Shown: in pieces, positions 6,690 to 57,029 of the stretch
Layout: the number at the start of each line of letters is the position of its first letter
Numbering within the stretch: the stretch's first letter is position 1
Origin: Candidatus Woesearchaeota archaeon
Lineage (GTDB): Archaea; Nanobdellota; Nanobdellia; SCGC-AAA011-G17; PNOQ01
DNA: 64,000 bases
Direction of reading: 5' to 3'
NCBI GenBank assembly: GCA_964344555.1
Contig: CAYFNK010000003.1
Location: 9,565 to 73,564 of the forward strand
Notes under the pieces: generated by a model
The model's database searches: none
What the model was told of the DNA's origin: nothing
Seen by the model: the letters and a program-made list of their open reading frames with translations, nothing else
Program-made: the position numbers and the translations under genes

Positions 6690-6908
6690 AAAAAGGTTAG
6701 TACAATAAAATATATAAAATGTTACAAAATAATTAAACAAATTACACAATGTTTAAATACTTCTTAGTTCATTATTATAATACGCAAGAGACAACTTCAA
6801 GACAAGGCGATTAAAACGAGACAAGCATTAACGACGCAAATCGAAGAGAATATTCTATACAAGATTAATAATTATAAATTCGACAATAAAATCCATAATC
6901 CTTCTGAG

Positions 6909-7778
6909 TTGATAGAAGAAAGTTTAAAGGAATACTTCTCAAAACATAAAACTCCAAAATTACCTCTTAAGGAAAGAATAAAAAGAAGCGTACTTTGTGG
7001 TCTTCTTAGTCCTGGAGAAAAAAATTTTGTTGTTAAATCTTTAGAGGATTATATTTTACCCAATAAGAAAAAAGGAACTTTCTTCGATCCAGTAAAAAAT
7101 AACTTATATTACTTAGTCGATGGAAATGTTCTGGAAAGAAGATTAAAAATCTATTCTAATGAAATAGAAGAAGAAGTAGTTCAAGATATTCTGTTCAAGG
7201 AAGAACTGTTCGGAATCCCATTAATAAGTAAAAAATATGCAGGTGAAGATAATAGATACAACACTTCCTGGGACTTCTTAAAAGATTCTGAAGTAATAAG
7301 AATACCTCTTCAAAAAGAAAAAGATTTAATCAAACATATTCCAAAAATGGAAGAAAATTTCTACCTCCTCAGAAACGAGAGAAGGGACAAATTAGAAGAC
7401 ATATCCATGATTAGAACAAGATGCGGATCAGAGGAAAAAGTAAGAGAAACTTTAAGTTTTATGTTAAACAAGAGGGGAGCCATGTCTCTAAATGGAGGAT
7501 ATTCTCATAGGCCAGCATTAATGAAACGAAATAATATAATTCATCGGTTTGGAAACTACTCCGATTATGGAATATTGCCCAAAGTAGGTCATGATAATCT
7601 TTCTTCTCTAGCATGTACGTCAAGAGAGACATTTTCAAGAGTTCTAAATGCATATGCTTTTCAAAGCAACGGAAGGAATTATAAACTTGCATTTGGAGAA
7701 GACAGTCATTTATTCATATGTAGATATTTGGATGATGAAGAGGGAAAACTTGTAAAGATAAAAGATTTGAAAGATTAA
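6909..7778 (+). CDS. hypothetical protein with a Crp/Fnr-like helix-turn-helix near the C-terminus
   Basis: 289 aa. LSSLACTSRETFSRVLNAY resembles the Crp-family HTH (LA...G.SRETVSR.L). Confidence 0.4.
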   Translation: MIEESLKEYFSKHKTPKLPLKERIKRSVLCGLLSPGEKNFVVKSLEDYILPNKKKGTFFDPVKNNLYYLVDGNVLERRLKIYSNEIEEEVVQDILFKEELFGIPLISKKYAGEDNRYNTSWDFLKDSEVIRIPLQKEKDLIKHIPKMEENFYLLRNERRDKLEDISMIRTRCGSEEKVRETLSFMLNKRGAMSLNGGYSHRPALMKRNNIIHRFGNYSDYGILPKVGHDNLSSLACTSRETFSRVLNAYAFQSNGRNYKLAFGEDSHLFICRYLDDEEGKLVKIKDLKD

Positions 7779-7817
7779 ACAAAAGCTTTTTAAGTTTATT
7801 TTCAGAATTCTAATACA

Positions 7818-8180
7818 ATGAAAACTATTCTTCTTGACACTAATTTTATAGTTTCAGCATTGAAAAATAAAATAAATTTGGACTTAGAACTAGATAGGAT
7901 AATGAAAGAAAAATATCAAAAAAAGATAATAGATAAAACTCTGGATGAATTAAAAAAATTAAACACGGAGCATTCAAAATTATCTATAAAAATCTTAGAA
8001 AAACAAAAAGTGAAGAAAATAAAGTCAAAAACAGACAACGTAGATAATGATATAGTAAAAAATTCAAATAAAGAAACTATAGTTGCTACATTAGATAGAG
8101 TGCTAAAAAAAAGACTAAAAGAAAAAGGAGTAAAAACAATAACAATTAGGCAAAAAAAGTACTTCAGCCTCAATAACTGA
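7818..8180 (+). CDS. PIN-domain protein (putative nuclease)
   Basis: N-terminal ILLDTNFIVSALK is the PIN acidic-residue motif. Sits immediately upstream of rpoE, as in the conserved archaeal PIN-RpoE-Spt4-S24e-S27ae cluster. Confidence 0.6.
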   Translation: MKTILLDTNFIVSALKNKINLDLELDRIMKEKYQKKIIDKTLDELKKLNTEHSKLSIKILEKQKVKKIKSKTDNVDNDIVKNSNKETIVATLDRVLKKRLKEKGVKTITIRQKKYFSLNN

Positions 8181-8225
8181 ATAGAAAGATTTATTAAAGG
8201 ACTTGAAACCAAATCAATATACAAA

Positions 8226-8774
8226 ATGTTTTATGAATTAAAGATTAAAGATCACATAAGAGTTTCCCCTTCTAAATTTGGAGATTCTGTAGAACAATCT
8301 GTATTGACTGCGTTAACTGATAAATTTGAAGGATATGTTTCCGAAGACATAGGATTCGCAGTTGGAGTAATTGAAGTGGAGAAGATTGGAGAAGGAGTAA
8401 TACTTCACGGAGACGGAGCAGCACATTACGAAACAACGTTCAAACTATTAACATTCAAACCAGAATTACAAGAAGTAGTTCTAGGAAAAATATCGGATAT
8501 AACTGACTTTGGAGCATTCATAGATATTGGAGCAATAGATGGAATGATTCACATTGGTCAAACTATGGATGATTATGTATCATTCAGCAACGGAGTATTA
8601 CAAGGTAAGGAATCAAAGAGGGCACTAAAAGTTAATGATCCTTGTAGGGCAAGAATAATTGCTATAAGTTACAAAGATCCTGCAAACCCAAAGATAGGTT
8701 TGACTATGAGACAAAACAGAATGGGTAACCTCAAGTGGGTAGAAGAAGACATAAAGAAGGAAAGTAAAAAATGA
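8226..8774 (+). CDS. rpoE: DNA-directed RNA polymerase subunit E' (Rpb7 homologue)
   Basis: 182 aa. N-terminal Rpb7 fold plus S1 domain (VVLGKISDITDFGAFIDIG...DGMIHIGQ). Confidence 0.85.
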   Translation: MFYELKIKDHIRVSPSKFGDSVEQSVLTALTDKFEGYVSEDIGFAVGVIEVEKIGEGVILHGDGAAHYETTFKLLTFKPELQEVVLGKISDITDFGAFIDIGAIDGMIHIGQTMDDYVSFSNGVLQGKESKRALKVNDPCRARIIAISYKDPANPKIGLTMRQNRMGNLKWVEEDIKKESKK

Positions 8775-8950
8775 AAAAGATATGTAAAAAATGTAAATTA
8801 TTTGTAGAAGGGACAAATTGTCCAGTTTGCAAGTCCAATCAATTCACAGACTCATTTAAGGGAAAGTTAATTATAACTGATGCTGAAAAGTCTGAAATTG
8901 CTAAAAAACTAGATCTTAAAGTTAAAGGAGAATACGCAATTAAAATATGA
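8771..8950 (+). CDS. spt4: Transcription elongation factor Spt4 / RNAP subunit E''
   Basis: 59 aa: MKKICKKCKLFVEGTNCPVCKSNQF..., a C-x2-C...C-x2-C zinc ribbon. Overlaps the rpoE stop and the S24e start in the canonical rpoE-spt4 arrangement. Below the 60-aa cutoff of the ORF track. Confidence 0.7.
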   Translation: MKKICKKCKLFVEGTNCPVCKSNQFTDSFKGKLIITDAEKSEIAKKLDLKVKGEYAIKI

Positions 8951-9333
8951 AATCTATAAGTGATGAAAAGAATTCTGTTTTACCAAGAAGAGAATTAGTT
9001 TTTGAAGTTGGACACGCTAAAACCTCAACTCCAAGCAAAGATAGTATTAAGGAAGAAGTTTCTAAGTCCATAAAGTGCGATAAGGAGTTAGTTGTAGTAA
9101 AAAAAATAAATACTCATTATGGTTCTACTAGCTCTCATGCCAAAGTTTATGTTTATGACAATAAAGATGAAATGAAAATCTTAGAAAAAGTAAAAGAGGA
9201 ACCTAAAAAAGAAGAAGTTACTGCAGAATCTAAACCTGCTGAAGAAAGATCTGCAGAAGAACCAAAAGAAGAGAAAGTAGAGGAAAAACAAGATGGCGAA
9301 GAAACCAAAGCCGAAGAACAAAGCACCGAGTAA
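8947..9333 (+). CDS. rps24e: 30S ribosomal protein S24e
   Basis: 128 aa: RRELVFEVGHAKTSTPSKDSIKEEVSK...ELVVVKK...GSTSSHAKVYVYD fits the S24e family. Acidic/Lys-rich C-terminal extension. Confidence 0.85.
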   Translation: MKSISDEKNSVLPRRELVFEVGHAKTSTPSKDSIKEEVSKSIKCDKELVVVKKINTHYGSTSSHAKVYVYDNKDEMKILEKVKEEPKKEEVTAESKPAEERSAEEPKEEKVEEKQDGEETKAEEQSTE

Positions 9334-9478
9334 AAAATTCGAGAAATATGAAGTTTCCGAAGGCAAAATAAATAGAAAGCAAACTTGCCCTAAATGCGGG
9401 GTTGGTATATTTTTAGCAATTCATAAGGATAGAAAACATTGTGGGAAGTGCGCATACACAGTTTTTGAAACACAATAA
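9293..9478 (+). CDS. rps27ae: 30S ribosomal protein S27ae
   Basis: 61 aa with a C4 zinc finger: KQTCPKCGVG...CGKCAYT. Overlaps the S24e 3' end, a conserved S24e-S27ae gene pair. Confidence 0.8.
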   Translation: MAKKPKPKNKAPSKKFEKYEVSEGKINRKQTCPKCGVGIFLAIHKDRKHCGKCAYTVFETQ

Positions 9479-9558
9479 TTCTGTAACTATTCATTAGTGG
9501 CACTCACCGAAAGATTTATAAATAATCAAAAACTCTAATTGTTATATCACCTCTTTTT

Positions 9559-9590
9559 CCCTAGGAGAAGACTTTGGTCTTTTCCCAGGG
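9559..9590. terminator. Inverted-repeat hairpin between convergent genes (GGAGAAGAC-TTTG-GTCTTTTCC), followed by T-run
   Basis: Read directly from the sequence. Lies between the S27ae stop (9478) and the stop of the minus-strand coiled-coil gene (9599). Confidence 0.3.
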
Positions 9591-9598
9591 TTTTATAA

Positions 9599-10246
9599 TC
9601 ATTTTTTATTTGAAAATTTTCTTTCAAAATTAAGATACAAATCTTCCATTTTTTTAAGATTTGCTTGCACAGAATTAGATATTTTTTCTATTTTTGTTAT
9701 TTCTCCCTTGACTTGTTTATTTAATTTTACTAATGCTTCACTATCTTTGAATCTTTTTATTGTAGTTCTCATATCTTTCATTTGAGAAAATATCTCATCA
9801 ATCATCCCTCTAAGAGATTCATTCTTAGTTTCAATTTTGTCCAATCTAACATCGTATCTGGCAAAGCCTTTTACAACCTTCTTGGGATTCATTGCTTTAA
9901 CTAAATCAGATGCCTTTTCAGCCTCGGTTTCAATTTTTTTTAATTTCTTTTCTTTTTCAAAGAATAAAGACCTTAAACTACCAATTTGTTCAGAAATATT
10001 ATTTATCTTATCAGAATCAGCCTTTCTAAAATCCTTTAGTATCTCTACCTCTGCTTCGAGTTTTTCAATTACTGCCTGAATTTTAGAATCATCAGAAATA
10101 CTTTGTTTAGGTTCTTCTTTTACTTCCATAGGTTGAGCAGATTGTTTACTCATGGGAGAAACCTCTGGAGCCCCTTTACCTAGGCTTTTTACTCTTTCTA
10201 GAAATCCTCTTTTTTGTGGAGTTTCTTTCTTTTGTTTTTTTGCCAT
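9599..10246 (-). CDS. coiled-coil protein, hypothetical (start probably internal Met near 10153)
   Basis: 215 aa with a heptad-rich Lys/Glu sequence. The N-terminal 31 codons overlap the 3' end of the giant gene in another frame, so the likely start is MSKQSAQP. Confidence 0.45.
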   Translation of the reverse strand: MAKKQKKETPQKRGFLERVKSLGKGAPEVSPMSKQSAQPMEVKEEPKQSISDDSKIQAVIEKLEAEVEILKDFRKADSDKINNISEQIGSLRSLFFEKEKKLKKIETEAEKASDLVKAMNPKKVVKGFARYDVRLDKIETKNESLRGMIDEIFSQMKDMRTTIKRFKDSEALVKLNKQVKGEITKIEKISNSVQANLKKMEDLYLNFERKFSNKK

Positions 10247-13200
10247 TGTTTACTTTCTTAGTTTTTTTCTTTTTAAGTTTTTTCATAGTTTGTTTCTTTT
10301 TGGCTCTTTCTACTTCCTTAGCCATTTCTTCCTTTGCTTCTTTAGTGACTGGGATTAAATCTTTTGGAGCTTTCTTTATGTACTTTTTTCTCATAGATTT
10401 AGCTCTATCAAGTATTTCTTTAAGTTCTTTACTTGTGAAAGTTTCTACCTTCTTTCTTCCAATCTTTCTTCTATGTTTCTTAACAATTTTATCTAAATTA
10501 GGTTTCATACTTTCTAAATATAAGTCAACCATATTGAAATTTCCTTGACTTAGCTTTTCATCAATAAGTTTCAACTCAATTTCAACATCAAATACATCCA
10601 CTTTTGCTTTCTTCAATTGTGAAATCTTCCATCTGATATCATCTAAGGTTTTGTTGTATTTTGTATATTTATTAAGTTCCTCGGCAGGTAATCCAAATGT
10701 GTTGTGTTTTAGAGGTCTAAATGAAACAAAGTAAGGAAGTCCCTTATTGTATCCTGCGTTAACATACATTCCCGTACCAATTGCTTCCCTAATTACAGAT
10801 TGAGAATACTTAGAACCATATTTCATTCTTATTCTCTTAAGGTCATTTTCATATCTAGTTCTGAACTGTATCTCATTTCCAATATTTGCCTTAATATCGC
10901 CTATAAAATCGCTCAATACCTGACTAATCAGAACCAAACCTACGCCCCATTTTCTAAATTCTCTTGCTCCTCTTTCTAGTTGAATTAATCCTGCACCTGA
11001 GCCTCCAAACTTCGATAATAATCTGTGAACTTCGTCATAAACCATTAAAAGTTTTAGTTTTCCAGTTTCAGGCAAGTTTGCTCTGAACACTTGTTCAACA
11101 GTCGTAGTAACTAGGACATCAATTTCTTTAGGTTTCAAATCCTTAACGACAAATACAGTTATTTTCCCAGGTTTAATATGTTCCTTAATATCAATTTGTT
11201 CCTTTGGATCTGTTATTTTGTAGATATTTCCTTCGTAAGCTTTAGCGGATTTAGGAGACATTCCAAAAAATCTATATCTATCTAACATGTTTGTTTGAGT
11301 AGATTTTCTTAAGTATCCTGTCCATTGTCCAGTTGGATCAAAAACAATTACTGAAACTTTTTTGTCTAAAGCTTCTTCAACTACATCCATAGCACCAACT
11401 GTTTTTCCACTTCCAGTGGCTCCAGCAATCAAAGTATGAGTTTGTAATTTATCTAAACCTATGTAAGAATTAATTGGGGTTTCAGCGACCTTACCAACAA
11501 ATGCTGCTCTGTCTGCAGATCTAGGTATAGATTTAATATCTACTTTTCCCTTGTATCTTCTTGTTTTTTGCCTTACAAACTCTAAAGAGTAAAATCCTCC
11601 AACTAGCAATAAAGCAATTGAAATTAATAATAAGTAATACTTGAATTTGATACCTAAGAAGGTTGCATTCAATACAGATCTAATTACTTCAATCTGAGCC
11701 ATAGAAATTGTTCCTCTTCCTGTAACTCCTGAATGTATTGCTTTTCCTTTCACATAGTAAAATCCTTCGTCTAAGTCAGAAGGAGTGCTTAATGATAGTA
11801 ATTCAGTATAATCAAATAGAACTTCTACGGTATAATTATCTTCACTCAAAGGAGTTTCAGTATCTTCCAAGTCTAATAGTTCAAGATTTATATCTACGTT
11901 TTGGTTGTTTCCATTATTTGTTACTTGAGTTTCAATACTAATATCATTTCCTGCAGAAACTGAATCTTGAAGAGGATCTATGTCTAAACTTAACAGATTA
12001 TATTCTGAATTAAGTACTCTTATTTCTACAAGTACTTCTGAATAGATGTCTGCTCTTGTGAAACTTATTTTCCCTTCATATAATCCATTATCTTTATCTT
12101 CTGGAATAGCTATGTTTACAATTAAATCTGGATTTGTTGCTATCTCTATACTACTTGGAACAGTAATTAAATCTTGTATTTCTCCACTAACTTCAACATC
12201 CAAACTAGTTACATCTTCAGTAATTGAACTTATATGGATTAATTCGTAAGCTTCTTCCCCTGGGAATAATTCTTTTTCTATCTTGTTCAAACTAAAAATT
12301 AAGCTCTCAGATAATTGTTGTTGCGGTTGAGAACCTCCAGAGGATCCGTCTCCGCCACCCCCAGAAGGGCCGCTAGGCTGACTAGGAGGTTGTTCAGAAT
12401 AAGTATCTGCAAAGTCCGCTCCACAACTAGTTTCAGTTTCCCAAGATTCTTGATCACCATTTCCGCAAGTGTTTATTGATAGGAGATATGCAGAGAATTC
12501 ATCTCCTTCTAGATCTTCTTCCTCCAATGGAGGAACATATGAAAAAACTCCTTCTTCAGAATCATAGGAATATTCCTCGGAAATAATTTCTATACTTTCA
12601 AGATCATTGCAAGTTCTTTCACTATAGCTCCAGTCATGACAAACTACATAGTTCATATGTTCAGTTAACCACCCAACATATCCAATATACCAGTAAGGAG
12701 TATCTTCGTCAAAGAAAGTACCGTCCATATGTAATTCATTTATAGTCCCAAGATCGAAAATTTCAGACTCAACAACTACCCCATAAAGAGATATATAATT
12801 ATTAACTAATGATTCCGGAATAAATGTCCCAGAATAATCAAAGAAGTCTAATGAAAAGAAATTACTATGTTCCTCCAACTGACTAAGGTCTACATCATAA
12901 AATGTAAAGTCAACTATACCTTGATAATTAATATTTAAATCCCAAATAGAATTTCCAATTTCTGATATTGTAAGTGAGTTCTCATTTTCAGCAGTAGTTA
13001 TTGGGTCGCTACAAGAGTCAGTTCCAGGTAAACAAAACATAAGAGAAACTCCAGTCAACTCATTTCCTTGTGCATCAGTGAATTCCATTTCAATATTGTA
13101 AATAAGATCTATAACTAAAAATTCACTATGGTTCACTGCAAGATTTCCATAATAGTCAGAAGTACTAACTTCAACAGTATAAATCTCATTTGACTCTAGC

Positions 13201-23127: not shown

Positions 23128-23442
23128 AGTGTAGGCAAGCGTAAGCCACGTTTTGTTAGGTTCTCGATAACGAACGAACCCTCCGACATTCAACTTAGCG
23201 TCTCAATGACTTGCACAAGTCGGGTCTGCCGTTTCACCGTTCCCCCACATAAACTCAGCTGGTTAACTCACTTTTGTTACCAAAAGCTTCGCAACATCAT
23301 TGCTAACAATGTAAGGACGTGTCGTTTCTGTGCGGTTGCCTTGGATTTCTCCAACTTAATTTTAAGCGACCGATAATTAGTGCGTGGACTTTCCTCCCAG
23401 TTACAGGTTAGTCGGACACTCACCTACATAAAACCAGACTAA
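23128..23442 (-). ncRNA. rnpB: RNase P RNA (archaeal type A)
   Basis: GC-rich island. On the minus strand: CR-I GGGAGGAAAGUCCACGC, CR-II GGUGAAACGGCAG, CR-IV CACAGAAAC, CR-V ACAAAACGUGGCUUACG. Termini form a P1-like pairing (GUAGG/CCUAC). Confidence 0.75.
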
Positions 23443-23473
23443 ATTTTGATTTATAAAATTAACTATTTGACTA

Positions 23474-23496
23474 CATTGTTAAGTTAGCGGGACTTA
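23474..23496 (+). repeat. Left terminal inverted repeat of the 6.2 kb element
   Basis: CATTGTTAAGTTAGCGGGACTTA, preceded by ACTATTTGAC-TA. Confidence 0.55.
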
Positions 23497-23498
23497 TT

Positions 23499-24479
23499 TC
23501 AAATTAAGTTTGAATTTTTTAGATTTTGTAAATGTTTTTCCAATAATTCTTGGTAATAATTCACTGTTCTATTTTCACTTAAATTTAATTCCCCTTTCTT
23601 TGTTTTATCCAATCTTAAAGCATGCCATAATACCTCATGGACTCTAAATATATCTGTATACAAGTCAACTCTTGTTCTAAAATCTCCAGTTTTTCCTTGA
23701 TATTGATTTAATATCTTTTCAATATCTTTATTTGAAAAATCATTAGATCTTAAAAGAGATGAAATTTCAAATGCCCTATCGCCGACACTTGAATGCTCCC
23801 AATCGATAAATCTTATTTTTCCATTTGGAGTGTAAATGATGTTTTCGGGATGTAAACCCGTGTGTACAAGTCCCATTTGTGAATTATCAAATGCTTCTCT
23901 TTTTTCATTAATTTTTTCTACTCCTTTTTCTGTTGCTGTTCTTGATAATCTATAAATATCATCTTCTCCAACTCTGTCTGCATATTCAGCTATTTGTCTT
24001 TGTGCATGAAAAGGAAACATATGGACATAATCCCAACAACTGTCAATGTCTCTTTTAAATCCTTTTTTATTTCTTAATATTTCTGGAGATATTTCTGCCA
24101 TTGAATTTAAGGAATTTAATATCTGTTCAAGATATGACCCCATTTTCTCCCCCATTAATGTTTTTCCCTCTATCATTTCTAGAATCATTGACTGATTCTT
24201 CAATGAGTCCTCATCATAAATATAAGCACGAGGAGCCACTTCAAAACTCTCTAGAGCTTTCAGTTTATGATACTCTCTTTCAAAAAATTCCAGATCTTTT
24301 CCACTAACTCCATTAATCTTTAAAACAAATGGTTTGGATCCAAATTTTATAAAATGAACCTTATTAGATTCTCCAGAATATGATCCTATGATTATCGGTT
24401 TTTCTTTACAATCATATAAACCTAATCTTGCTTGATCAATTTTCTCTATATATTGTTGTATTTCTATTCCTTTATTCAT
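23499..24479 (-). CDS. Aminoglycoside-phosphotransferase/choline-kinase family kinase (APH fold)
   Basis: 326 aa. Catalytic loop VHTGLHPENIIY and IDWEHSSVGD (the DxxxxN / D-[FW]-E motifs of the APH/ChoK family). Confidence 0.75.
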   Translation of the reverse strand: MNKGIEIQQYIEKIDQARLGLYDCKEKPIIIGSYSGESNKVHFIKFGSKPFVLKINGVSGKDLEFFEREYHKLKALESFEVAPRAYIYDEDSLKNQSMILEMIEGKTLMGEKMGSYLEQILNSLNSMAEISPEILRNKKGFKRDIDSCWDYVHMFPFHAQRQIAEYADRVGEDDIYRLSRTATEKGVEKINEKREAFDNSQMGLVHTGLHPENIIYTPNGKIRFIDWEHSSVGDRAFEISSLLRSNDFSNKDIEKILNQYQGKTGDFRTRVDLYTDIFRVHEVLWHALRLDKTKKGELNLSENRTVNYYQELLEKHLQNLKNSNLI

Positions 24480-25398
24480 TTTTTATTAGAGTATATAATT
24501 TATTTGCACCAATATTTCCAATTGAGGGAAGTTTAGAAAAAACCCAGTTCGGCAATGAGTTTGAGGTTGCTTGAATTCCCATTGGCTTTAATATTTTTGG
24601 ATAAAGTACTCTTGACATATAATAATAAGAAGATGTTGGATCCTCTTCTCTGAAAACTGTGAGTCCGTTATCAGATGTTATTTTAATAAAATCTTCTGTT
24701 AAAGGGAGGCAGTGAAAGGGCAAATCAATTGATTCTAAACCAAAATCATTTCTTAGTTTATTTAGTCTTTCGTAACCTTCCATAAAAAGATCAAAAATAA
24801 ATATCTTACCCCCCGGTATTGTCAATCTAGATAATTCTTCAATAGCCCTTTTTTGTTCCCTTCTTGAAGGTAGATTTGATAAAGCCCTTTTAGCATACAC
24901 TATATCAAATGAATTACTTTCTCTAAGAACATTAGTCATTTCCCCAACCTCAAAATGAATTTCCCTTAGTCCTTTTTCTTGTTTTAAAATATTAGCCATA
25001 TCTATGGCTTTGCTATTAGCATCAATACCCAAAACATAATTATCTCCAGGTCTTGTAATAGCAATTGTACTATGCCCATTAGCACATCCTACATCAAGTA
25101 TTTTTTTACCCCCATAAGGATAAATTCTTTCTCTTAATATTCTATTTTCTCTATGGTTAAGATGTATGTCTGGAAACCCAAATTCTTCCGAATCTCTATA
25201 TTTTGTTGCACGTTTATTCCAAAAGTCTTTATTCATAACTCTTCTTGTGTCTTCAAGAAATACTTCGGGATTAGATAAAACAATTTGTGCATACTCCTTA
25301 GATTTTTCTAAATCAACCTGAGTGACTTTTTTTGCGAGATTATCTAATCCACAAAAAGGGTAAGATATTGTCATTGGGCTTGGAACACTTGCGACCAT
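24472..25398 (-). CDS. Class I SAM-dependent methyltransferase (true start probably the internal Met near 25236)
   Basis: Motif I ILDVGCANGHSTIAI; post-I acidic residue. The N-terminal 50-odd codons of the ORF are antisense to the radical-SAM N-terminal homology, which suggests a shorter gene. Confidence 0.7.
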   Translation of the reverse strand: MVASVPSPMTISYPFCGLDNLAKKVTQVDLEKSKEYAQIVLSNPEVFLEDTRRVMNKDFWNKRATKYRDSEEFGFPDIHLNHRENRILRERIYPYGGKKILDVGCANGHSTIAITRPGDNYVLGIDANSKAIDMANILKQEKGLREIHFEVGEMTNVLRESNSFDIVYAKRALSNLPSRREQKRAIEELSRLTIPGGKIFIFDLFMEGYERLNKLRNDFGLESIDLPFHCLPLTEDFIKITSDNGLTVFREEDPTSSYYYMSRVLYPKILKPMGIQATSNSLPNWVFSKLPSIGNIGANKLYTLIKNE

Positions 25399-25528
25399 TG
25401 CAAAAAGTGAGGGATTTAACGTTGGAGTATTAGATGCCGAAGCACAACCAAGAGGTTCTTTAGAAAATATTGCTCAAAAAATTAATTATCATTCACCAAG
25501 ATATGTTGGATTTAGTAGTAATACTCCC

Positions 25529-26677
25529 ATGTATTCTAATACTTTAGAATTATGTTCATTGTTAAATCAAGATATTCCAATAATTATTGGAGGAGCTCAT
25601 GCTTCTGCGTTACCCAAACAAACTGCTAAAGATTTTAAAGATATGAATTTTTATTTATTAATAAGAGGACCTGCTGAAGATGCGATTGTTGATATACTTT
25701 CAAATACTCCAAAGCAAAAAATTCCTAGATCAGTCTATTATAATCAAGGAGGTAGATTAGTTGAAAATGAGGTCATTCCTATCGGAAGTTTTCAAAACTA
25801 TCCGCATGTAGATAGATCTTTTTTTATTAATGATCCTCTAGAAATTGGAGGAAATATGACTTCTTTTCTATTATCTTCAAGGGGATGTTTTTATGATTGT
25901 TCTTTTTGCTCAATTCATACAACCTGGGATCAAAAAACAATGTTTAGGGAGGTTGATGATATCTTAGATGAAATGAAAAACCTTTATTCAAGAGGAGTAA
26001 GATCATTTAAATTTCTTGATGACTTATTTTTAATTAATTCAAAGAGACTAAATGAATTTTATCAAGGTTTAGGTAGAAGAGATTTATTGGGTAAATTGGA
26101 TTGGTCTGCAAATTCAAGAGTTAATGTAATAAATAGATTTTCTGACTATGATATAACCTTATTAGCGCAAAGTGGATGTGGTGGAATTGGACTAGGATTA
26201 GAATCGGGAAATGATGATCTCCTTAAAACTATCGGAAAGGGTTTTACCTCTGAAGAAAGTAGAGAGTCTGTAAGGAGGCTAAGAAATGCTGGAATAAAAT
26301 CTTATGGATATTTCATTATAGGTTTTCCGGAAGAAGATGATTCTCAGATAAATAATACAATTAATTTTGCTTATAGGTTATCTAATGAGTTTGGTTTAAA
26401 GGCGGGCATAGTTCCATATAAGCTTTATCCTGGTTCAAGAGATTATAAGAATATTATTGGAAATAACCCTTCAAACGAAAGAGTTCATCAACTAATTAAG
26501 TTTAAAACAGCATCTTTAACTCATCCAAATGATCCCGAATCAGTTAAGAATTTCTTAAAACAAAGGGAAAGACATACGGTTATTCACAATCCCGAACACT
26601 ATAATCCCTCAAACATAAGTTCAGACAAAATAGTTGAATATATAAGAGATTTTTATTTAAGGAGCAGATTTGGATAG
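25529..26677 (+). CDS. B12-binding-domain radical SAM protein (possible N-terminal disruption)
   Basis: C-x3-C-x2-C as GCFYDCSFCS, followed by a TIM-barrel radical SAM core. The B12-binding Rossmann homology continues upstream of the ATG to an in-frame TAA at 25361-25363. Confidence 0.75.
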   Translation: MYSNTLELCSLLNQDIPIIIGGAHASALPKQTAKDFKDMNFYLLIRGPAEDAIVDILSNTPKQKIPRSVYYNQGGRLVENEVIPIGSFQNYPHVDRSFFINDPLEIGGNMTSFLLSSRGCFYDCSFCSIHTTWDQKTMFREVDDILDEMKNLYSRGVRSFKFLDDLFLINSKRLNEFYQGLGRRDLLGKLDWSANSRVNVINRFSDYDITLLAQSGCGGIGLGLESGNDDLLKTIGKGFTSEESRESVRRLRNAGIKSYGYFIIGFPEEDDSQINNTINFAYRLSNEFGLKAGIVPYKLYPGSRDYKNIIGNNPSNERVHQLIKFKTASLTHPNDPESVKNFLKQRERHTVIHNPEHYNPSNISSDKIVEYIRDFYLRSRFG

Positions 26678-27052
26678 ATTAATAAGTTCAAGGAAAAAAT
26701 CTTTATAAGTTATAGGTTCCAGATTGGCAAGTTCCTCATATGTAAACCATCTATGATCTGAGTGTTCTTCTGAAATAACTACCTCTTTAGTCGTTGGTTT
26801 TCCAAGAAATACCATGGCCATAATCTCTCCATCTTTATCAAGTTCTTTAACAATCCTAATAATTTCTATATCCAAATTTACTTCCTCTTTAGTTTCTCTA
26901 ATTGCGGCATCTTCAAATGATTCCCCCTCCTCAAGTTTTCCTCCAGGACATTCCCAATTACCACAATGCTCAATTTTTTCCTTATCTGCTCTTTTCACTA
27001 GCAGATATTTTCCTTCATCGTCCTGAATAATAATTTTTACTTGTTTTGACAT
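26657..27052 (-). CDS. NUDIX hydrolase
   Basis: 131 aa. Nudix box GGKLEEGESFEDAAIRETKEEVNL. Confidence 0.85.
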   Translation of the reverse strand: MSKQVKIIIQDDEGKYLLVKRADKEKIEHCGNWECPGGKLEEGESFEDAAIRETKEEVNLDIEIIRIVKELDKDGEIMAMVFLGKPTTKEVVISEEHSDHRWFTYEELANLEPITYKDFFLELINLSKSAP

Positions 27053-27102
27053 AATATAAGAATAAAAGATTAATTTAAAAACTTAACTAAATTCGTATAA
27101 AC

Positions 27103-27597
27103 ATGGATAAAAATATAATTAAAATTTTCAAATATGTTCAAAAAATACCTTATAGAGTATGTAAATTTGAAAAAGAAAAGATTACTTATAAGCTTAAATA
27201 TGGGGATTGTAGGCATAAGGCCTTTTTATTAAAAACACTTTTAGAAAAACAAGGATATGAAGTTATGGAAATAAAGGTAATTTTTGATTGGAAAGATTTG
27301 CCAATACCAAAAGAGATAATCTCAATTTTAAAAAAATCTTCAACAATCTGGCCACATGATTCTTTAAAGGTAAAAATTAAAAATAGATGGGTTAAAATTG
27401 ATCCAACATGGAATCCTGAATTAGAAAAAAAGGGTTTTCCAATAACAAAAAAATGGGATGGGAAAACAGATACTAAACAAGTAACCGAAGGCAAATTAAA
27501 ATTTTATAAAAAAGAAAAATATATTAAAAAAAATAAAATTAATCTTGACGAAGCAAAAATGTTTGCAGAGATATTAAATGAATATTTAGCTGCATAA
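27103..27597 (+). CDS. Transglutaminase-like (papain-fold) domain protein
   Basis: 164 aa. Candidate Cys-His-Asp triad YGDCRHKAF ... WPHDS ... KIDPTWN. Confidence 0.5.
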   Translation: MDKNIIKIFKYVQKIPYRVCKFEKEKITYKLKYGDCRHKAFLLKTLLEKQGYEVMEIKVIFDWKDLPIPKEIISILKKSSTIWPHDSLKVKIKNRWVKIDPTWNPELEKKGFPITKKWDGKTDTKQVTEGKLKFYKKEKYIKKNKINLDEAKMFAEILNEYLAA

Positions 27598-28422
27598 AGA
27601 GATCTGATTTTTAATAGACAATGCTATTTTTTCCAAATTATTGCCATAAATTGCAGCAGTATGGGGAGTTAAAATAAGATTCTCAACATTTTTGTAAGAC
27701 TCTAAATCTAAATCATTTGGATAAGTATCAAAAATTGCTCCACCCAGAGTTCCATTTTTTACTCTTTCAAAAATTTCTTTTTCTTCCAAGATTCCAGTTC
27801 TTGAGAGATTTACAACAACTGAATTGGGTTTAATTATCCCTGTTTTATTTAATCCTATGCTCTTTGTAGCTTCAGACAAGGGAAGAGTGTTGATAATTAC
27901 ATCGCATGACATAAAAACCTTTTCCAACCCTTCCAATCCACCAGAATGAGCAACTTTTTCTAAAGGATTTAAAGGGGTTTCTTTTAAAATCCAAAATTTA
28001 CAATTATAATCACTTAAGGCAGAATAAATCTCCTTTCCAATATTTCCAAAGCCAAGTAATCCTACATTTTTTTTGTCAAAATACTCTTCTAAGGTTGTTC
28101 CAGCTAATTTTCTTATGTTATCCAAAAAATACTGAATTACCCCTTTAGATATAACTGATTTGTCTTGATAAATCGAAATACCTCTTTCTTTCACTTTTTC
28201 TAGTTCAATTTCTTCAGTTCCTGAAGTGGGAATAATTAGTGCTCTAAGGTTTGGTAATTTTCTTAAATCATCATTAGAGAGATAATTTGTTACAAGAATT
28301 TCGGTATTTGGGTCAATTACTCTTTGAGTATAATTCGCAACTACTCCATTATCTTTGAGAGCTTCGACTATATAATTTTCTCTCCATTTTGAAGGCGCTT
28401 TTATCCTGATTGAAGTTTTCAT
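27586..28422 (-). CDS. D-isomer-specific 2-hydroxyacid dehydrogenase family protein (NAD-binding)
   Basis: 278 aa. GLLGFGNIGKEI Rossmann motif. Catalytic region ...LSRTG...DTYPNDLD...TPHTA. Confidence 0.8.
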   Translation of the reverse strand: MKTSIRIKAPSKWRENYIVEALKDNGVVANYTQRVIDPNTEILVTNYLSNDDLRKLPNLRALIIPTSGTEEIELEKVKERGISIYQDKSVISKGVIQYFLDNIRKLAGTTLEEYFDKKNVGLLGFGNIGKEIYSALSDYNCKFWILKETPLNPLEKVAHSGGLEGLEKVFMSCDVIINTLPLSEATKSIGLNKTGIIKPNSVVVNLSRTGILEEKEIFERVKNGTLGGAIFDTYPNDLDLESYKNVENLILTPHTAAIYGNNLEKIALSIKNQISLCS

Positions 28423-28456
28423 AAATCTTGTAAAATCACTTAATTTATATTATTTT

Positions 28457-29401
28457 CTAGTTGCTCTTACTGCGCTTTATCAGCTCTAACCATTTATTAT
28501 TTTCCTTAAGTTTTAGATTGGTGGCCAATTCATAGGGGCAGCAATTTATAGTTTGATGTTTCCTTATGAAATTGTAAAAAATTACATAACCTTTCATAAT
28601 TGCATCTGCACTTTCTACACTTCCATGAAATCCACGAAAAGTTTTAGTTCGTTCTCTTATTGAGTTATGCAATCTCTCAATGTAAAGATTAAAACCTTCT
28701 CCATTTGAAGCAACAACAGGATTATGGATTATATTGTATTTCTGCTCTTTAAGATTCCAGCCCCAAGTTTTTTTTACAACCCCTTTATAAACTTGCCAGC
28801 CATCCGTTGTAATAGTGGTTACATAACCTTCTGTTTTGTATTTAACTTTGCCCATGATTTCCTTGATTTCTTGTTGTCCTCTTGCCTTGAAATATTTAGC
28901 ACTTACCAAATACCTTGTTTTAACATCAATACTATCAATAAACCAATCCTTACAAGTTCCTTTATTTTTATGTTCTTCTCGTCGATGATATTCCATTTCA
29001 TCAACCTGAATTTCTTTTCCAGAATTAATTTTTAATTTGTCTGTAAAACCTGAAATCATATTGGCGTATTTCACAACCCAATTATACACAGAAACATTAG
29101 TAGAATTACTAGGATAAAAAGCTTGGAAATGTTCTTGGACTTTTCTTGTAGAGACTCCCTTATAAAATAAATCCAAAGCACAGGTTACCTTATTGGGATG
29201 ATTTCTCATCCTAAAAAAACCATCGTCAATCACAAAACGATGCTTACAATTTTTACAAGAATACCTTTGTATCTTGCCCCTATTCTCTGTTTTTCTGAAA
29301 CCCCTCTTGATGATTTTTTCAGATTTACAATTAGGACAAGAAAGTTTTTTATAGTCGTTCCCTTTACTATTATTGGAATTGATTTGTGCTTGGTCGTGCA
29401 T
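28457..29401 (-). CDS. DDE transposase with N-terminal zinc ribbon (IS1595/IS6-like), copy 1
   Basis: 314 aa. C-x2-C...C-x2-C zinc ribbon, HTH (KGVSTRKVQEHF), DDE region (QVDEMEY, TTDGWQVY, NN-IERLHNSIRERTK...RGFH). About 50% identical to the ORF at 52295..53233. Confidence 0.8.
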   Translation of the reverse strand: MHDQAQINSNNSKGNDYKKLSCPNCKSEKIIKRGFRKTENRGKIQRYSCKNCKHRFVIDDGFFRMRNHPNKVTCALDLFYKGVSTRKVQEHFQAFYPSNSTNVSVYNWVVKYANMISGFTDKLKINSGKEIQVDEMEYHRREEHKNKGTCKDWFIDSIDVKTRYLVSAKYFKARGQQEIKEIMGKVKYKTEGYVTTITTDGWQVYKGVVKKTWGWNLKEQKYNIIHNPVVASNGEGFNLYIERLHNSIRERTKTFRGFHGSVESADAIMKGYVIFYNFIRKHQTINCCPYELATNLKLKENNKWLELIKRSKSN

Positions 29402-29407
29402 TTTGAT

Positions 29408-29428
29408 TCCCGAGCCCTTCGGGGCTCG
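29408..29428 (-). promoter_or_regulatory. Stable hairpin CGAGCCC-CGAA-GGGCUCG in the transposase 5' leader (about 7 nt upstream of the ATG on the mRNA); also 3' of the RHH gene
   Basis: A GC-rich 7-bp stem with a CGAA loop in an AT-rich context. A similar CGAA-loop hairpin precedes the second transposase copy at 52265-52281. Confidence 0.35.
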
Positions 29429-29443
29429 TTTAATTTATTATGA

Positions 29444-29599
29444 TTATCTTGTTAGCGGATCTTTCTTTTCTAAATCTCCTTTAATTAAAATTGCTATTCT
29501 GCTACTAAGATTAATTCCATTAGCTTCGCAAAATTTTCTAAAATCTGCAAGTAACTTTTTAGGCAGAGTTATGTTTAATCTTCCGTAATGTTTATCCAT
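29444..29599 (-). CDS. Ribbon-helix-helix (CopG/Arc-family) DNA-binding protein, 51 aa
   Basis: MDKHYGRLNITLPKKLLADFRKFCEANGINLSSRIAILIKGDLEK matches the RHH beta-strand plus two-helix consensus. Lies between the right TIR and the transposase. Below the ORF-track size cutoff. Confidence 0.5.
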   Translation of the reverse strand: MDKHYGRLNITLPKKLLADFRKFCEANGINLSSRIAILIKGDLEKKDPLTR

Positions 29600-29660
29600 A
29601 CTTATTAATGAGTATTGCTACTATTTAAATGTTTCTCTAAACTTCTTAGTTACAACTCGC

Positions 29661-29683
29661 TAAGCCCCGCTAACTTAACAATG
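29661..29683 (-). repeat. Right terminal inverted repeat of the 6.2 kb element
   Basis: The reverse complement is CATTGTTAAGTTAGCGGGGCTTA, followed on the plus strand by C-ACTATTTGAC. Confidence 0.55.
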
Positions 29684-30524
29684 CACTATTTGACATAATG
29701 AAATCTAAACCTTTTTCTAATCCATATCTATAATCATGTTCTATAGATTCTTGAAAATGCTTAATTGTAGTAGTTTTTAGATCTTCATCAGGTGCTATTT
29801 GATAAACTTCCAAATCTTCTGGAGGGGAATTCAAAAATTTTGCATCTTTATTATAAATTTCTGGATGGTGATATAGTACGTCTTGGAATTTTTCATATTC
29901 ATCATAAAATTTAGGACTTAAGATATCATTTAAAGTTCTATCTGAAATAAAATCAATTGGATGAGTTCTTAAAACTATAATTTTATTTGCCCCCATTTTG
30001 TAAGCTTGTTTGGCAGGTATAGGATCAGACATTCCTCCATCAAGTAATTTTCTTGAATCAACTTCACAATACTTAGAAGTTACTAAAGGTAATGAACTAG
30101 AAGCCTTTAGATATTTCTTCCAAGTTTTAGTAGTGGGTTCTAAATATACTGGCTCCCCTTTTTCTATATCTGTAGCAACTATCACAAGTTTCTTATCTTT
30201 GATGTTTTCTATAGCCTTTTTTACCTTAAAGGGATTTTTCTTATTTCCTTCTTCTATTAAAAGATCTAAATCCATATAATTTCCACCTTTTAGATATCTA
30301 AAAATACTAAGAAAATTAGAATTAGATGCAATGTCTTTTATTAGTTCTATATTTCTTTTATATTGTTTTGAAGAAAATGAAGATAAGTTCATTGCTCCAC
30401 TAGAAACTCCAACATAAATATCAAATGGATCATAGTTGTGTGAAATAAAGGTATCTAAAATTCCAGCAGTGAATGCAGCTTTAAATCCTCCTCCTTCGAC
30501 AACTAAAGCAGATTTTTCTTTCAT
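29670..30524 (-). CDS. Patatin-like phospholipase
   Basis: 284 aa. Oxyanion hole GGGFKAAFTAGIL, nucleophile elbow GVSSGA, DGG motif. The last 4 codons and stop derive from the inserted element's TIR. Confidence 0.8.
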   Translation of the reverse strand: MKEKSALVVEGGGFKAAFTAGILDTFISHNYDPFDIYVGVSSGAMNLSSFSSKQYKRNIELIKDIASNSNFLSIFRYLKGGNYMDLDLLIEEGNKKNPFKVKKAIENIKDKKLVIVATDIEKGEPVYLEPTTKTWKKYLKASSSLPLVTSKYCEVDSRKLLDGGMSDPIPAKQAYKMGANKIIVLRTHPIDFISDRTLNDILSPKFYDEYEKFQDVLYHHPEIYNKDAKFLNSPPEDLEVYQIAPDEDLKTTTIKHFQESIEHDYRYGLEKGLDFIMSNSALLS

Positions 30525-35667: not shown

Positions 35668-35785
35668 TGGGTCTGGGCGGATTTGAACCGCCGATCTCTG
35701 GTGTTCTTAGATTTTTGGAGTTAAAATTTGTACCAAAAACGGTCATATAAGACCAGTGCTTTAAACCAGACTAAGCCACAGACCC
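35668..35785 (-). tRNA. Intron-containing tRNA, most likely tRNA-Ile (anticodon TAT); intron of about 42 nt after position 37
   Basis: Reverse complement: acceptor GGGTCTG, D-arm TGGCTTAGTCTGGTTTAAAGCA, anticodon stem CTGGT with loop CTTATA, then an intron (tgaccgtttttggtacaaattttaactccaaaaatctaagaa), then ACCAG, T-arm GGCGGTTCAAATCCGCC and CAGACCCA. Confidence 0.7.
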
Positions 35786-51907: not shown

Positions 51908-51991
51908 GAGAAGAAACTCGTCTTGTTGATATTTAAATGTTTTGCAATATGTACATTGTAACGTTAAAGGGAGTTATTTAACTCAAAAAAA

Positions 51992-54855: not shown

Positions 54856-54856
54856 T

Positions 54857-57027: not shown

Positions 57028-57029
57028 TT

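What the first reader, a model, noticed from the sequence alone, without database searches (positions are those of the whole stretch)
23462..29694. A 6.2 kb cargo-carrying transposon with 23-bp TIRs and a 10-bp target-site duplication, inserted into the 3' end of a patatin gene next to RNase P RNA
The sequence CATTGTTAAGTTAGCGGGACTTA occurs at 23474-23496, and its reverse complement (22/23 identical) occurs at 29661-29683. Both copies are flanked on the outside by the same 10-mer ACTATTTGAC, in direct orientation, at 23462-23471 and 29685-29694. Reading the patatin frame through the left flank reconstructs a pre-insertion C-terminus ...MSNS-TAA. After insertion it reads ...MSNSALLS-TAG, with the new stop supplied by the TIR. 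Inverted termini, a direct target duplication and a repaired host ORF together are the signature of a single transposition event. One end holds an RHH gene and a zinc-ribbon DDE transposase, both co-oriented with six passenger enzyme genes. Cargo-bearing transposons are essentially undescribed in small-genome DPANN-type archaea.
Basis: seen in the sequence. Interest (0 to 1): 0.85.

Follow-up and report, generated by a model that had tools for sequence, protein, structure and literature searches.

The report
Promoter-targeting cargo transposon in DPANN archaeon
A 6.2 kb mobile DNA element carrying its own transposase and six passenger genes inserted between a lipase gene and the RNase P RNA gene of a tiny archaeon; it belongs to a large, apparently undescribed transposon family that always carries cargo and lands just upstream of gene promoters.

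Summary
There the patatin gene ends ...MSNS-TAA and runs straight into the RNase P RNA promoter, with one copy of GTCAAATAG.

Corrections:
- The element spans 23472-29685 (6214 bp).
- The inverted ends are 25 bp (TACATTG.../TGCATTG...).
- The target duplication is 9 bp, not 10.
- Two of the six cargo genes lie on the other strand.
- Two cargo genes are 5'-truncated by a ~3.7 kb internal deletion of a conserved cargo cluster.

The transposase has a zinc ribbon, an HTH and a DDE core, and is a distant IS6-family relative.

The element is one member of a large DPANN family: 203 relatives in GTDB species genomes and more than 1,400 protein clusters. Complete copies are 1.9-8.3 kb. None is a bare IS. 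Cargo is mostly restriction-modification systems, plus metabolic clusters and aminoacyl-tRNA synthetases.

38 of 42 insertions sit exactly 5 bp upstream of a BRE/TATA promoter motif. A second copy lies at 51952-59438, and another sits in a head-tailed virus contig.

The parts
23131..23427 (-). Host RNase P RNA gene, downstream neighbour of the insertion
   Evidence: Rfam RF00373, 139 bits, full length
23450..23457 (-). TTTATAAA TATA box of the RNase P RNA promoter. It is the target-site motif, 5 bp from the duplicated 9-mer and 22 nt from the RNA 5' end
   Evidence: Sequence. The same motif sits at the same distance in 38/42 family insertions. It is present in the empty site L093
23463..23471 (.). 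Target-site duplication, left copy (CTATTTGAC)
   Evidence: A single copy is present in the empty site L093
23472..23496 (+). Terminal inverted repeat at the cargo end, TACATTGTTAAGTTAGCGGGACTTA
   Evidence: Family PWM score 31.7
23499..24479 (-). Cargo: APH/choline-kinase-like kinase, 326 aa
   Evidence: Pfam PF01636 6.8e-14, PF01633. Conserved last gene of the cargo cluster in L122, L124 and L125
24472..25398 (-). Cargo: SAM methyltransferase, 308 aa. It is the 3' ~300 codons of a 507-519 aa nucleotidyltransferase-methyltransferase fusion found in relatives, so the gene is 5'-truncated with a fortuitous new start
   Evidence: Pfam. Residues 7-306 align to 207-506 of the L124 protein. The first ~10 codons are antisense to the radical SAM remnant
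25364..25380 (.). Approximate junction of a ~3.7 kb internal deletion that removed GT4, HAD, Glycos_transf_3 and the 5' parts of the two divergent flanking genes
   Evidence: Comparison with the L124 and L125 gene order and protein alignments
25364..26677 (+). Cargo: B12-binding radical SAM remnant. The frame is open from 25364 and the first ATG is at 25529. The first ~37 codons and the original start are missing
   Evidence: Pfam PF04055 1.3e-20. Aligns to residues 38-468 of the 470-aa L124 homologue, 63% identical
26657..27052 (-). Cargo: Nudix hydrolase, 131 aa
   Evidence: PF00293 3.5e-23. 69-82% identical to the cluster homologues
27103..27597 (+). Cargo: conserved 164-aa protein of unknown function
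   Evidence: No Pfam or NCBIfam hit. 67-74% identical homologues at the same position in L122, L124 and L125
27586..28422 (-). Cargo: D-isomer-specific 2-hydroxyacid dehydrogenase, 278 aa
   Evidence: PF02826 4e-22. Also the first cargo gene after the transposase in L125
28457..29401 (-). Transposase, 314 aa. Zinc ribbon C22/C25/C49/C52; HTH at about 69-120; DDE core with D134, D200, E242 (+R249)
   Evidence: NCBIfam IS6 1.1e-13, IS1 4.9e-11, IS1_IS1595_Zn above cut-off. Invariant columns. hhalign to IS26 transposase. AF2 RNase H-like core with Foldseek hits to DDE transposases and integrases
29444..29599 (-). 51-aa ribbon-helix-helix protein, co-directional with and just upstream of the transposase; putative regulator
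   Evidence: PF07878 1.3e-4. 71-94% identical homologues in the same position in L013, L038, L055, L063 and L078
29661..29685 (-). Terminal inverted repeat at the transposase end, TGCATTGTTAAGTTAGCGGGGCTTA. It supplies 4 codons and the stop of patatin
   Evidence: PWM score 31.2
29686..29694 (.). Target-site duplication, right copy (CTATTTGAC)
29670..30524 (-). Host patatin-like phospholipase. The C-terminus changed from ...MSNS* to ...MSNSALLS*
   Evidence: Pfam PF01734 and PF19890. 280-aa orthologues P0122 and P0124 end in ...MSNS and ...MLNS

Best explanation
Window 23472-29685 is a single 6214-bp unit transposon that inserted once, as one piece, into a 9-bp target (GTCAAATAG on the gene strand). 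That target spans the last codons of a patatin gene and lies immediately upstream of the BRE/TATA promoter of the RNase P RNA gene.

Shown:
- 25-bp inverted ends, a 9-bp target duplication, and an exact empty site in a relative.
- One transposase gene only, with no internal end copies.
- The same architecture in dozens of independent insertions in other DPANN genomes.

Transposition module: a 314-aa transposase (N-terminal zinc ribbon, HTH, RNase H-fold DDE core; distant IS6-family relative) plus a small upstream gene. Here that gene encodes a 51-aa RHH protein; in most relatives it is a divergent ~50-aa zinc-ribbon protein.

Inferred mechanism: the transposase binds the two 25-bp ends, cuts at the T tips, and joins them to target DNA with a 9-bp stagger. 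Whether this is cut-and-paste or IS6-style replicative cointegration is not decided.

Target choice is not random. The family inserts so that the duplicated 9-mer ends 5 bp upstream of a TTTATAAA box preceded by AA, at about -43 to -35 of a leaderless archaeal promoter. This leaves both neighbouring genes intact. Whether the transposase reads that sequence itself or recognises a TBP/TFB-bound promoter is unknown.

The cargo is a degraded copy of a conserved 8-10-gene cluster that travels in this family: 2-hydroxyacid dehydrogenase, 164-aa protein, Nudix, B12 radical SAM, GT4, HAD, Glycos_transf_3, nucleotidyltransferase-methyltransferase, kinase. The copy here has lost ~3.7 kb internally.
For: - Repeats are non-random.
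- Empty site: L093 aligns colinearly across the reconstructed junction, 88% over 887 nt, with the ~45 nt around the junction identical and one copy of the 9-mer. No TIR is present in L093.
- Patatin orthologues of 280 aa end ...MSNS.
- Only two family-type ends lie in and around this element, and one transposase ORF.
- The arrangement is identical on 7 contigs from the source project.
- Family: 203 relatives in GTDB species genomes. 49/80 loci have ends on both sides of the transposase, with spans of 1.9-8.3 kb, and 40/49 have an exact 9-bp duplication. Flanks are unrelated between loci.
- L125 carries the same cargo order inside W2-type ends with an exact 9-bp duplication.
- Transposase: IS6 is the best NCBIfam hit for 15/15 members. 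hhalign to IS26 gives E 4e-5 from the HTH through the DDE. The end motif C3 A4. T6 G7 T8 T9. C11 is in the same register as the IS26 end GGCACTGTTGCAAA (PMC7986276). The model has an RNase H fold whose best structural matches are DDE transposases and integrases.
- Target motif: found at 38/42 sites against ~0.5 expected. AA at +2/+3 is present in 32 and 37 of 38 sites and was not part of the filter. The modal distance from the motif to the outward ORF start is 21 nt.
- Internal deletion.
Against: - No second identical copy or excised form was seen, so current activity is unproven.
- The two ends differ at 2 of 25 positions.
- The transposase scores below the curated thresholds of every named IS family (51 bits vs 125 for IS6), so the IS6-like mechanism is an analogy.
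- The structure model is only moderately confident (pLDDT 66).
- Purifying selection in very compact genomes would also enrich surviving insertions near promoters. The single-nucleotide spacing argues for direct targeting but does not prove it.
- About 9 of 49 elements, including the one on the virus contig, lack a clean duplication.
- The organism's assignment to DPANN rests on relatives' labels, not on a phylogeny made here.
Confidence: 0.9

Rival explanations
1. The promoter-adjacent position is not a property of the transposition machinery. Insertion would be near-random, and only copies that fall in the few neutral bases between genes survive in these compact genomes.
For: Only 7/42 reconstructed targets are spanned by an ORF of 80 aa or more. 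Intergenic spacers here are tiny; the patatin stop lies 4 nt from the rnpB TATA box.
Against: Spacing is fixed to the nucleotide in 38/42 independent sites. The extra AA at +2/+3 is 84-97% conserved. The motif lies on one side only, in either orientation. The same spacing holds where the other flank has more than 100 nt of free space, for example L044.
Confidence: 0.15
2. The block is not one transposon. It would be a short IS (RHH + transposase) plus host DNA that was mobilised once through a stray or surrogate far end, or a decayed composite of two IS copies.
For: Two cargo genes are truncated, showing internal rearrangement. Decayed versions exist elsewhere: L122 has a degenerate end and no transposase.
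Against: No inner end copy exists next to the transposase; only 34 nt separate it from the first cargo gene. None of 49 complete relatives has bare-IS size. The same cargo order lies inside ends with a duplication in L125. The far end is a full-scoring family end.
Confidence: 0.04
3. An integrative island inserted by a site-specific recombinase, with the direct repeats acting as att sites.
For: Direct repeats flank the block and it lies next to a stable RNA gene.
Against: No integrase or serine recombinase gene is present. The repeat is 9 bp and differs at every family insertion, whereas the inverted ends are conserved. The DDE transposase fold is supported.
Confidence: 0.01
4. The element is a fixed, no longer mobile relic. 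It inserted once in this lineage and is now decaying.
For: It is single-copy and sits at the same place in all 7 contigs. The cargo carries an internal deletion. There are 2 mismatches between the ends. Immobilised remnants of the same cluster exist (L122, L124).
Against: The transposase is full length and keeps every family-invariant residue, including the four cysteines and D134/D200/E242. Both ends score as high as the family median.
Confidence: 0.35

Closest known systems
IS6 (IS26) family insertion sequences, especially the zinc-finger-bearing clade h
   Same: The transposase core is HTH + DDE + K/R. IS6 is the best NCBIfam hit for 15/15 members, and hhalign to IS26 TnpA gives E 4e-5 over 179 columns. 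Most homologues are pre-annotated with the Pfam IS240 DDE domain. The end motif CA(y)TGTT(G)C is in the same register from the tip as IS26 GGCACTGTTGCAAA and the family's 'cTGTt' motif (PMC7986276).
   Different: - Scores lie far below the curated IS6 cut-off (51 vs 125 bits).
- The duplication is 9 bp, not 8 bp.
- Ends are 24-26 bp with T(A/G/T) tips, not 14-20 bp with GG tips.
- Elements are 1.9-8.3 kb with internal cargo, not ~0.8 kb.
- IS6 moves cargo as pseudo-compound transposons between two direct IS copies, and only one passenger-carrying member (ISDsp3) is recorded (PMC7986276).
- This family has a second small module gene and a strict target motif.
IS1 family (including its archaeal single-ORF/ISMhu11-type members) and IS1595-family 'transporter IS' with passenger genes
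   Same: The N-terminal zinc ribbon passes the NCBIfam IS1/IS1595 Zn-domain cut-off (30.9 vs 28). The 9-bp duplication matches IS1, and passenger genes lie inside a single pair of ends. These last two points are from my own knowledge of Siguier et al. 2009 and ISfinder, and were not checked here.
   Different: The IS1 transposase profile is only a weak partial hit (43 bits vs 100). IS1595 is hit by 3/15 members. End sequences are unrelated. A literature check for ISMhu11 found nothing in the held library.
Unit transposons such as the Tn3 family
   Same: Same concept: one pair of inverted ends, a target duplication, and a transposition module plus variable passenger genes, including defence and metabolic genes.
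   Different: Tn3 has a ~1000-aa TnpA, 38-bp ends, a 5-bp duplication and a resolvase/res system (my own knowledge). None of these is present here.
Promoter- or safe-site-targeting elements (yeast Ty3/Ty1 at Pol III genes, S. pombe Tf1 at Pol II promoters, Tn7 at attTn7)
   Same: It works alike in outcome. Insertion occurs at a fixed position just outside a transcription unit, which avoids gene disruption in a gene-dense genome.
   Different: The enzymes are unrelated, the host is archaeal, and the cue is BRE/TATA. No tethering factor has been identified. This is a functional analogy only, drawn from my own knowledge.

Membership tests
IS6 / IS26 family | Transposase matches the family profile at the curated threshold | tested here: not met
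   NF033587 scores 51.3 bits against a cut-off of 125. The best of 15 members has E 2.7e-19, still below cut-off. Homology itself is supported.
IS6 / IS26 family | 8-bp target duplication | tested here: not met
   An exact 9-bp duplication occurs in 40/49 complete elements, including this one. The 8-bp figure for IS6 comes from PMC7986276.
IS6 / IS26 family | Short (14-20 bp) ends with a GG tip and cTGTt/caaa motifs | tested here: inconclusive
   T6 G7 and T9 are invariant, and TGTT is present in 52/74 ends, in the IS26 register. However, the tips are T-A/G/T, there is no caaa, and the length is 24-26 bp.
IS6 / IS26 family | Simple IS of ~0.7-1.8 kb with a single ORF; cargo only in pseudo-compound transposons | tested here: not met
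   Spans are 1.9-8.3 kb, with one transposase and cargo inside one pair of ends.
IS6 / IS26 family | Transposition through cointegrates | not testable with these tools
   The only hint is that a minority of copies lack a duplication (L097, L071, L086).
IS1 family | InsA-type zinc finger + HTH followed by a DDE domain that matches the IS1 profile | tested here: not met
   The Zn domain NF050000 is met (30.9 vs 28). The IS1 transposase profile NF033558 scores 42.9 against 100 and covers only model positions 1-171 of 199.
IS1 family | 8-9 bp target duplication | tested here: met
   9 bp. The IS1 value is from my own knowledge.
IS1595 family | Transposase matches the IS1595 profile (DDNK/DDE core) | tested here: not met
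   NF033547 is hit weakly by only 3 of 15 members and not by the window protein.
DDE transposon with passenger genes (unit transposon / transporter IS), structural class | One pair of inverted ends, a flanking target duplication, a DDE transposase and non-transposition genes between the ends, and a demonstrable empty site | tested here: met
Tn3 family | Large TnpA, ~38-bp ends, 5-bp duplication, resolvase | tested here: not met
   The transposase is 314 aa, the ends are 25 bp, the duplication is 9 bp, and no resolvase is present.

The most novel reading that the evidence does not exclude
The element represents an undescribed family of IS6-related unit transposons that spans DPANN archaea. Its features are a two-gene module (small zinc-ribbon or RHH protein plus zinc-ribbon DDE transposase), 25-bp ends and a 9-bp duplication. 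The family never occurs as a bare IS. It is tethered to, or reads, archaeal BRE/TATA promoters so as to insert at about -35 without harming genes. It serves as a main shuttle for restriction-modification systems, metabolic clusters and extra aminoacyl-tRNA synthetases among ultra-small archaea, including via their head-tailed viruses.
Probability: 0.5. Interest if true: 0.8.

Novelty: new variant of a known kind. Interest (0 to 1): 0.72.

Why it matters
DPANN archaea have tiny, gene-dense genomes, and how they gain accessory functions is poorly understood. This is a directly verified case, with occupied and empty sites, of a multi-gene block delivered by a transposon.

It also opens onto a whole family that moves defence systems, metabolic clusters and tRNA synthetase paralogues, and that also occurs in a virus genome.

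The fixed insertion position next to BRE/TATA elements would be, if mechanistic, an archaeal counterpart of the promoter-targeted integration known from yeast retrotransposons. It would explain how kilobase-sized insertions are tolerated where intergenic spacers are ~35 bp.

The defined 25-bp ends, small transposase and predictable target would also make the family a candidate genetic tool for archaea.

Tried and rejected
- Looked for an inner end copy that would define a short IS next to the transposase. None was found at up to 6 mismatches or by PWM.
- My first inverted-repeat script merged seeds on one antidiagonal and missed the window element. It was rewritten.
- A regex anchor for the tips mis-placed 7 elements. 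It was replaced by a PWM scan.
- Base composition shows no contrast between element and flanks, so it gives no evidence on foreign origin.
- Literature: 'ISMhu11' gave 0 papers, and IS1595 subgroup names gave nothing useful. Searches on DPANN/Pacearchaeota transposons and on TATA-targeted archaeal insertion found no relevant paper.
- A PDB sequence search with the family profile found no solved IS6 or IS1 relative. The best hit was the IS256-family ISCth4, E 0.056.
- The exact 18-mer end in JGI metagenomes gave 23 loci. Most were too short to hold both ends.
- No near-identical element pairs were found among species representatives, so there is no direct evidence of very recent spread.
- The virus-borne copy has no target duplication.
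- The patatin variant P0123 was checked as a possible second insertion of this family at the same site. It has other DNA there but no family end.


Full report
**1. Observation.** The 23-mer occurs at 23474-23496. Its reverse complement (22/23) occurs at 29661-29683. These are the only matches in the window at up to 3 mismatches, with none expected. The 10-mer ACTATTTGAC occurs only at 23462-23471 and 29685-29694, in direct orientation. Patatin (29670-30524, -) ends ...MSNSALLS, with its stop inside the repeat. RNase P RNA lies at 23131-23427 (-), and the 23S/16S rRNA operon starts 84 nt beyond patatin.

**2. Anatomy.** Between the repeats, on the - strand unless stated, lie the following genes:
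- A 51-aa RHH protein (29444-29599).
- A 314-aa zinc-ribbon DDE transposase (28457-29401).
- A 2-hydroxyacid dehydrogenase.
- A conserved 164-aa protein (+ strand).
- A Nudix hydrolase.
- A B12/radical SAM protein (+ strand).
- A SAM methyltransferase.
- An APH/choline-kinase-like kinase.

So four, not six, cargo genes are co-oriented with the transposase. There is no integrase, no second transposase and no inner end copy. GC content does not differ from the flanks. The same arrangement is on all 7 contigs that encode this exact transposase, from ENA project PRJEB17505.

**3. Empty site.** Among patatin homologues, P0122 (90% identical) is 280 aa and ends ...FIMSNS, exactly the predicted pre-insertion end. 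P0124 (70%) is also 280 aa. P0122 lies on a Tara Oceans scaffold (L093). There the patatin stop is followed directly by TAATTTTATAAATCAAAATTTAGTCTG, then the RNase P RNA, Sec61-beta, NAC and the same downstream genes as in the window. A reconstructed empty site (window flanks joined with one 9-mer copy) aligns to L093 colinearly across the junction. Identity is 88% over 887 nt, and the ~45 nt around the junction are identical. L093 has no family end.

**4. Exact boundaries.** Relatives show that the conserved end starts two bases further out. The consensus is T-(A/G/T)-C-A-T-T-G-T-T-A-C-C-T-T-A-A-C-G-G-G..T, with T6, G7 and T9 invariant in 74 ends. With tips defined this way, 30/37 elements and, by PWM, 40/49 elements have an exact 9-bp duplication. 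For the window element this gives:
- Ends at 23472-23496 and 29661-29685 (23/25 identical).
- A 6214-bp element.
- The duplication CTATTTGAC at 23463-23471 and 29686-29694.

The tenth matching base is the first T of the end, which coincides with the next target base.

**5. The family.** The transposase has more than 1,400 homologous 90% clusters, and sources name them Pacearchaeota 'IS1/IS6 family transposase'. A scan of one genome per GTDB species found 203 relatives. The best 80 are all in Pacearchaeota, Woesearchaeota or Nanoarchaeota MAGs.
- 49 of the 80 loci have ends on both sides of the transposase, spanning 1.9-8.3 kb.
- 29 have one end, mostly because the contig is cut. Two have none.
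- No copy has the ~1.3 kb expected of a bare IS.
- Flanks are unrelated between loci, so these are independent insertions.

The transposase is always preceded by a small gene. In at least 46/80 loci this is a divergent 47-51-aa zinc-ribbon protein. In 6 loci, including the window element, it is a co-directional 51-aa RHH protein.

A census of 133 cargo ORFs from 32 elements is dominated by restriction-modification genes:
- N6_N4_Mtase 9, N6_Mtase 4, Eco57I 3, RE_MjaI 2, plus C5, D12 and MmeI types.
- Also Fic, MazE, class-I tRNA synthetases, SpoU and Nudix.

Close relatives of the window transposase carry quite different cargo. L014 and L009 (85% identical) carry a CDP-alcohol phosphatidyltransferase and a CarS-like gene. 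L013 (88%) carries unknown proteins. L038 carries a mix of methyltransferases, a thioredoxin-reductase-like protein and others.

**6. The cargo of this element.** The kinase has only 20 homologues. Their contexts show a conserved cluster. In L124 it reads: 2-hydroxyacid dehydrogenase, 164-aa protein, Nudix, a full 470-aa B12 radical SAM, GT4, HAD, Glycos_transf_3, a 507-aa nucleotidyltransferase-methyltransferase fusion, and the kinase. L124 has no transposase and no ends. L122 has a degenerate end after the kinase.

In L125 the cluster (without the radical SAM gene) lies in a complete 8370-bp element with an exact 9-bp duplication (GCAAAGTAG). Its transposase is 90% identical to the window's second element and only 52% identical to the first. 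So the same cargo rides behind divergent modules.

The window copy has a ~3.7 kb internal deletion:
- The radical SAM frame is homologous only from residue 38 of the L124 protein. It lacks its start; the frame is open from 25364 and the first ATG is at 25529.
- The methyltransferase corresponds to residues ~207-506 of the fusion.
- The two remnants abut back to back near 25364-25380.

The biochemical role of the cluster is unknown. I only infer a small-molecule or nucleotide-sugar pathway.

**7. The transposase.** NCBIfam results:
- IS6: E 1.1e-13, 51 bits against a cut-off of 125, covering the whole model.
- IS1: 43 bits against 100.
- IS1/IS1595 zinc domain: 30.9 against 28.

IS6 is the top hit for 15/15 family members. 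hhalign against IS26 TnpA, fetched from plasmid NTP16, aligns the HTH through the DDE (E 4e-5, probability 70%).

Family-invariant residues include C22, C25, C49, C52, D134 (QVDEMEY), D200 (TTDG), E242 and R249. The AF2 model (pLDDT 66; core ~85) has the beta-beta-beta-alpha-beta-alpha-beta-alpha RNase H topology. Its best PDB matches are ISCth4 transposase, retroviral integrases, TnsB, IstA and MuA.

The ends share C3-A4-.-T6-G7-T8-T9-.-C11 with the IS26 end GGCACTGTTGCAAA, in the same register. They also share the 'cTGTt' motif described for IS6 (PMC7986276). The differences from IS6 are the 9-bp rather than 8-bp duplication, the T tips, the longer ends, the internal cargo and the extra gene. 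IS6 has a single recorded passenger-carrying member and otherwise moves cargo as pseudo-compound transposons. I therefore treat the family as a distant IS6-like lineage, not a member.

**8. Target choice.** I aligned 42 reconstructed targets with exact duplications. In 38 of them the sequence (A)AA-NN-TTTATAAA-(C) lies immediately outside the duplication, on one side only. It is on the left in 22 and on the right in 16, relative to the transposase. The motif's background frequency is 0.006 per position, so about 0.5 sites are expected. The AA at +2/+3 was not used for selection and is present in 32 and 37 of 38 sites.

The outward-reading ORF starts exactly 21 nt after the 8-mer in 11 of 29 scorable cases, with 22 and 24 nt in others. 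That is the geometry of a leaderless archaeal BRE/TATA promoter.

In the window element, the motif (23450-23457) is the RNase P RNA promoter, 22 nt from the RNA 5' end. In the second element it is TTTAAATA, 22 nt from the start of the 657-aa gene.

Because the 9-mer is duplicated, both the promoter (to about -43) and the upstream gene's end are preserved. Patatin only gains four codons. I consider direct targeting, by sequence readout or by a promoter-bound factor, more likely (~0.8) than pure post-insertion selection. The reason is the single-nucleotide precision.

**9. What remains inferred.**
- The chemistry: 3'-OH strand transfer with a 9-bp stagger.
- The roles of the RHH and zinc-ribbon proteins, presumed to be regulators or cofactors.
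- Replicative versus cut-and-paste movement.
- Current activity.
- The route between cells. One family member with R-M cargo sits in a head-tailed virus contig.
- The DPANN assignment of the window's organism, which rests on archaeal rRNAs, ~30% GC, relatives' labels and the Tara 0.1-0.22 µm size fraction.

**10. Verdict.** The finding is real and correctly interpreted in its essentials. It is a new variant of a known kind: a DDE unit transposon, or 'transporter IS'. The family-level features are obligate cargo, a two-gene module, promoter-adjacent targeting, wide spread in DPANN genomes and one copy on a virus contig. These make it more interesting than a single insertion, and I found no description of it in the held literature.

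Noticed in passing
window 51943-59447: A second transposon of the same family, 7487 bp (51952-59438).
- 25-bp ends: TACATTGTAACGTTAAAGGGAGTTA and, at the other end, ...GGAAGTTA.
- Exact 9-bp duplication TGCAATATG at 51943-51951 and 59439-59447.
- Divergent 51-aa zinc-ribbon gene (51992-52147, -).
- Transposase 52295-53233 (+), 51% identical to the first element's.
- Cargo: HAD, Zn-ADH, Glycos_transf_3 and three class-Ib (Tyr/Trp-type) tRNA synthetase paralogues.
- It is inserted between the promoter of a 657-aa gene and the 3' end of tRNA-Val.

Its empty site was not sought.
   Followed up: partly
L097 (IMGVR_UViG_3300001335_000237) 6535-10599: A complete 4065-bp family member: end PWM scores 34 and 32, N6_N4 DNA methylase/RAMA cargo, and a transposase 70% identical to the window's. 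It sits directly after the portal gene of a head-tailed virus contig that also encodes an HK97-type capsid and a prohead protease. It has no target duplication. It is a possible vehicle for spread between cells.
   Followed up: partly
L126 1011-1771 (also L127-L129): In a third relative (patatin 81% identical, 293 aa), the sequence diverges from the empty site five bases into the same 9-mer (ATTATGTCAA|CC...). It continues into unrelated DNA with an AbrB/MazE-like 47-aa gene and two ~45-bp direct repeats. No family end is present. The patatin/rnpB boundary may be a recurrent insertion or rearrangement point.
   Followed up: partly
L122/L123 10986-11010; L124: The same cargo cluster occurs without a transposase. 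In L122 a degenerate end (TTCATTATTACCTTAAGGGGGCTTA) remains after the kinase. In L124 there is no end at all, and the radical SAM gene is intact. These look like immobilised or domesticated copies.
   Followed up: partly
L120 1143-1201: Two family ends lie back to back, 9 bp apart, pointing away from each other. This suggests two elements inserted side by side.
   Followed up: no
L014/L009 element (about L014 9670-12194): A 2.5-kb family member, with a transposase 85% identical to the window's, carries a CDP-alcohol phosphatidyltransferase and a CarS-like CDP-archaeol synthase gene. Lipid head-group genes on a transposon are notable in a lineage usually said to lack lipid synthesis.
   Followed up: no
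window 35668-35785 (-): Rfam reports a 118-nt tRNA match here that ARAGORN does not list. It is probably an intron-containing tRNA.
   Followed up: no
window 28457-29401 (residues 18-57 of the transposase): The N-terminal zinc ribbon gives weak Pfam matches to Elf1 and TFIIB-type zinc ribbons (E 0.0025 and 0.0054, below cut-offs). Given the promoter-adjacent targeting this may be worth a look, but it may equally be generic zinc-ribbon similarity.
   Followed up: no
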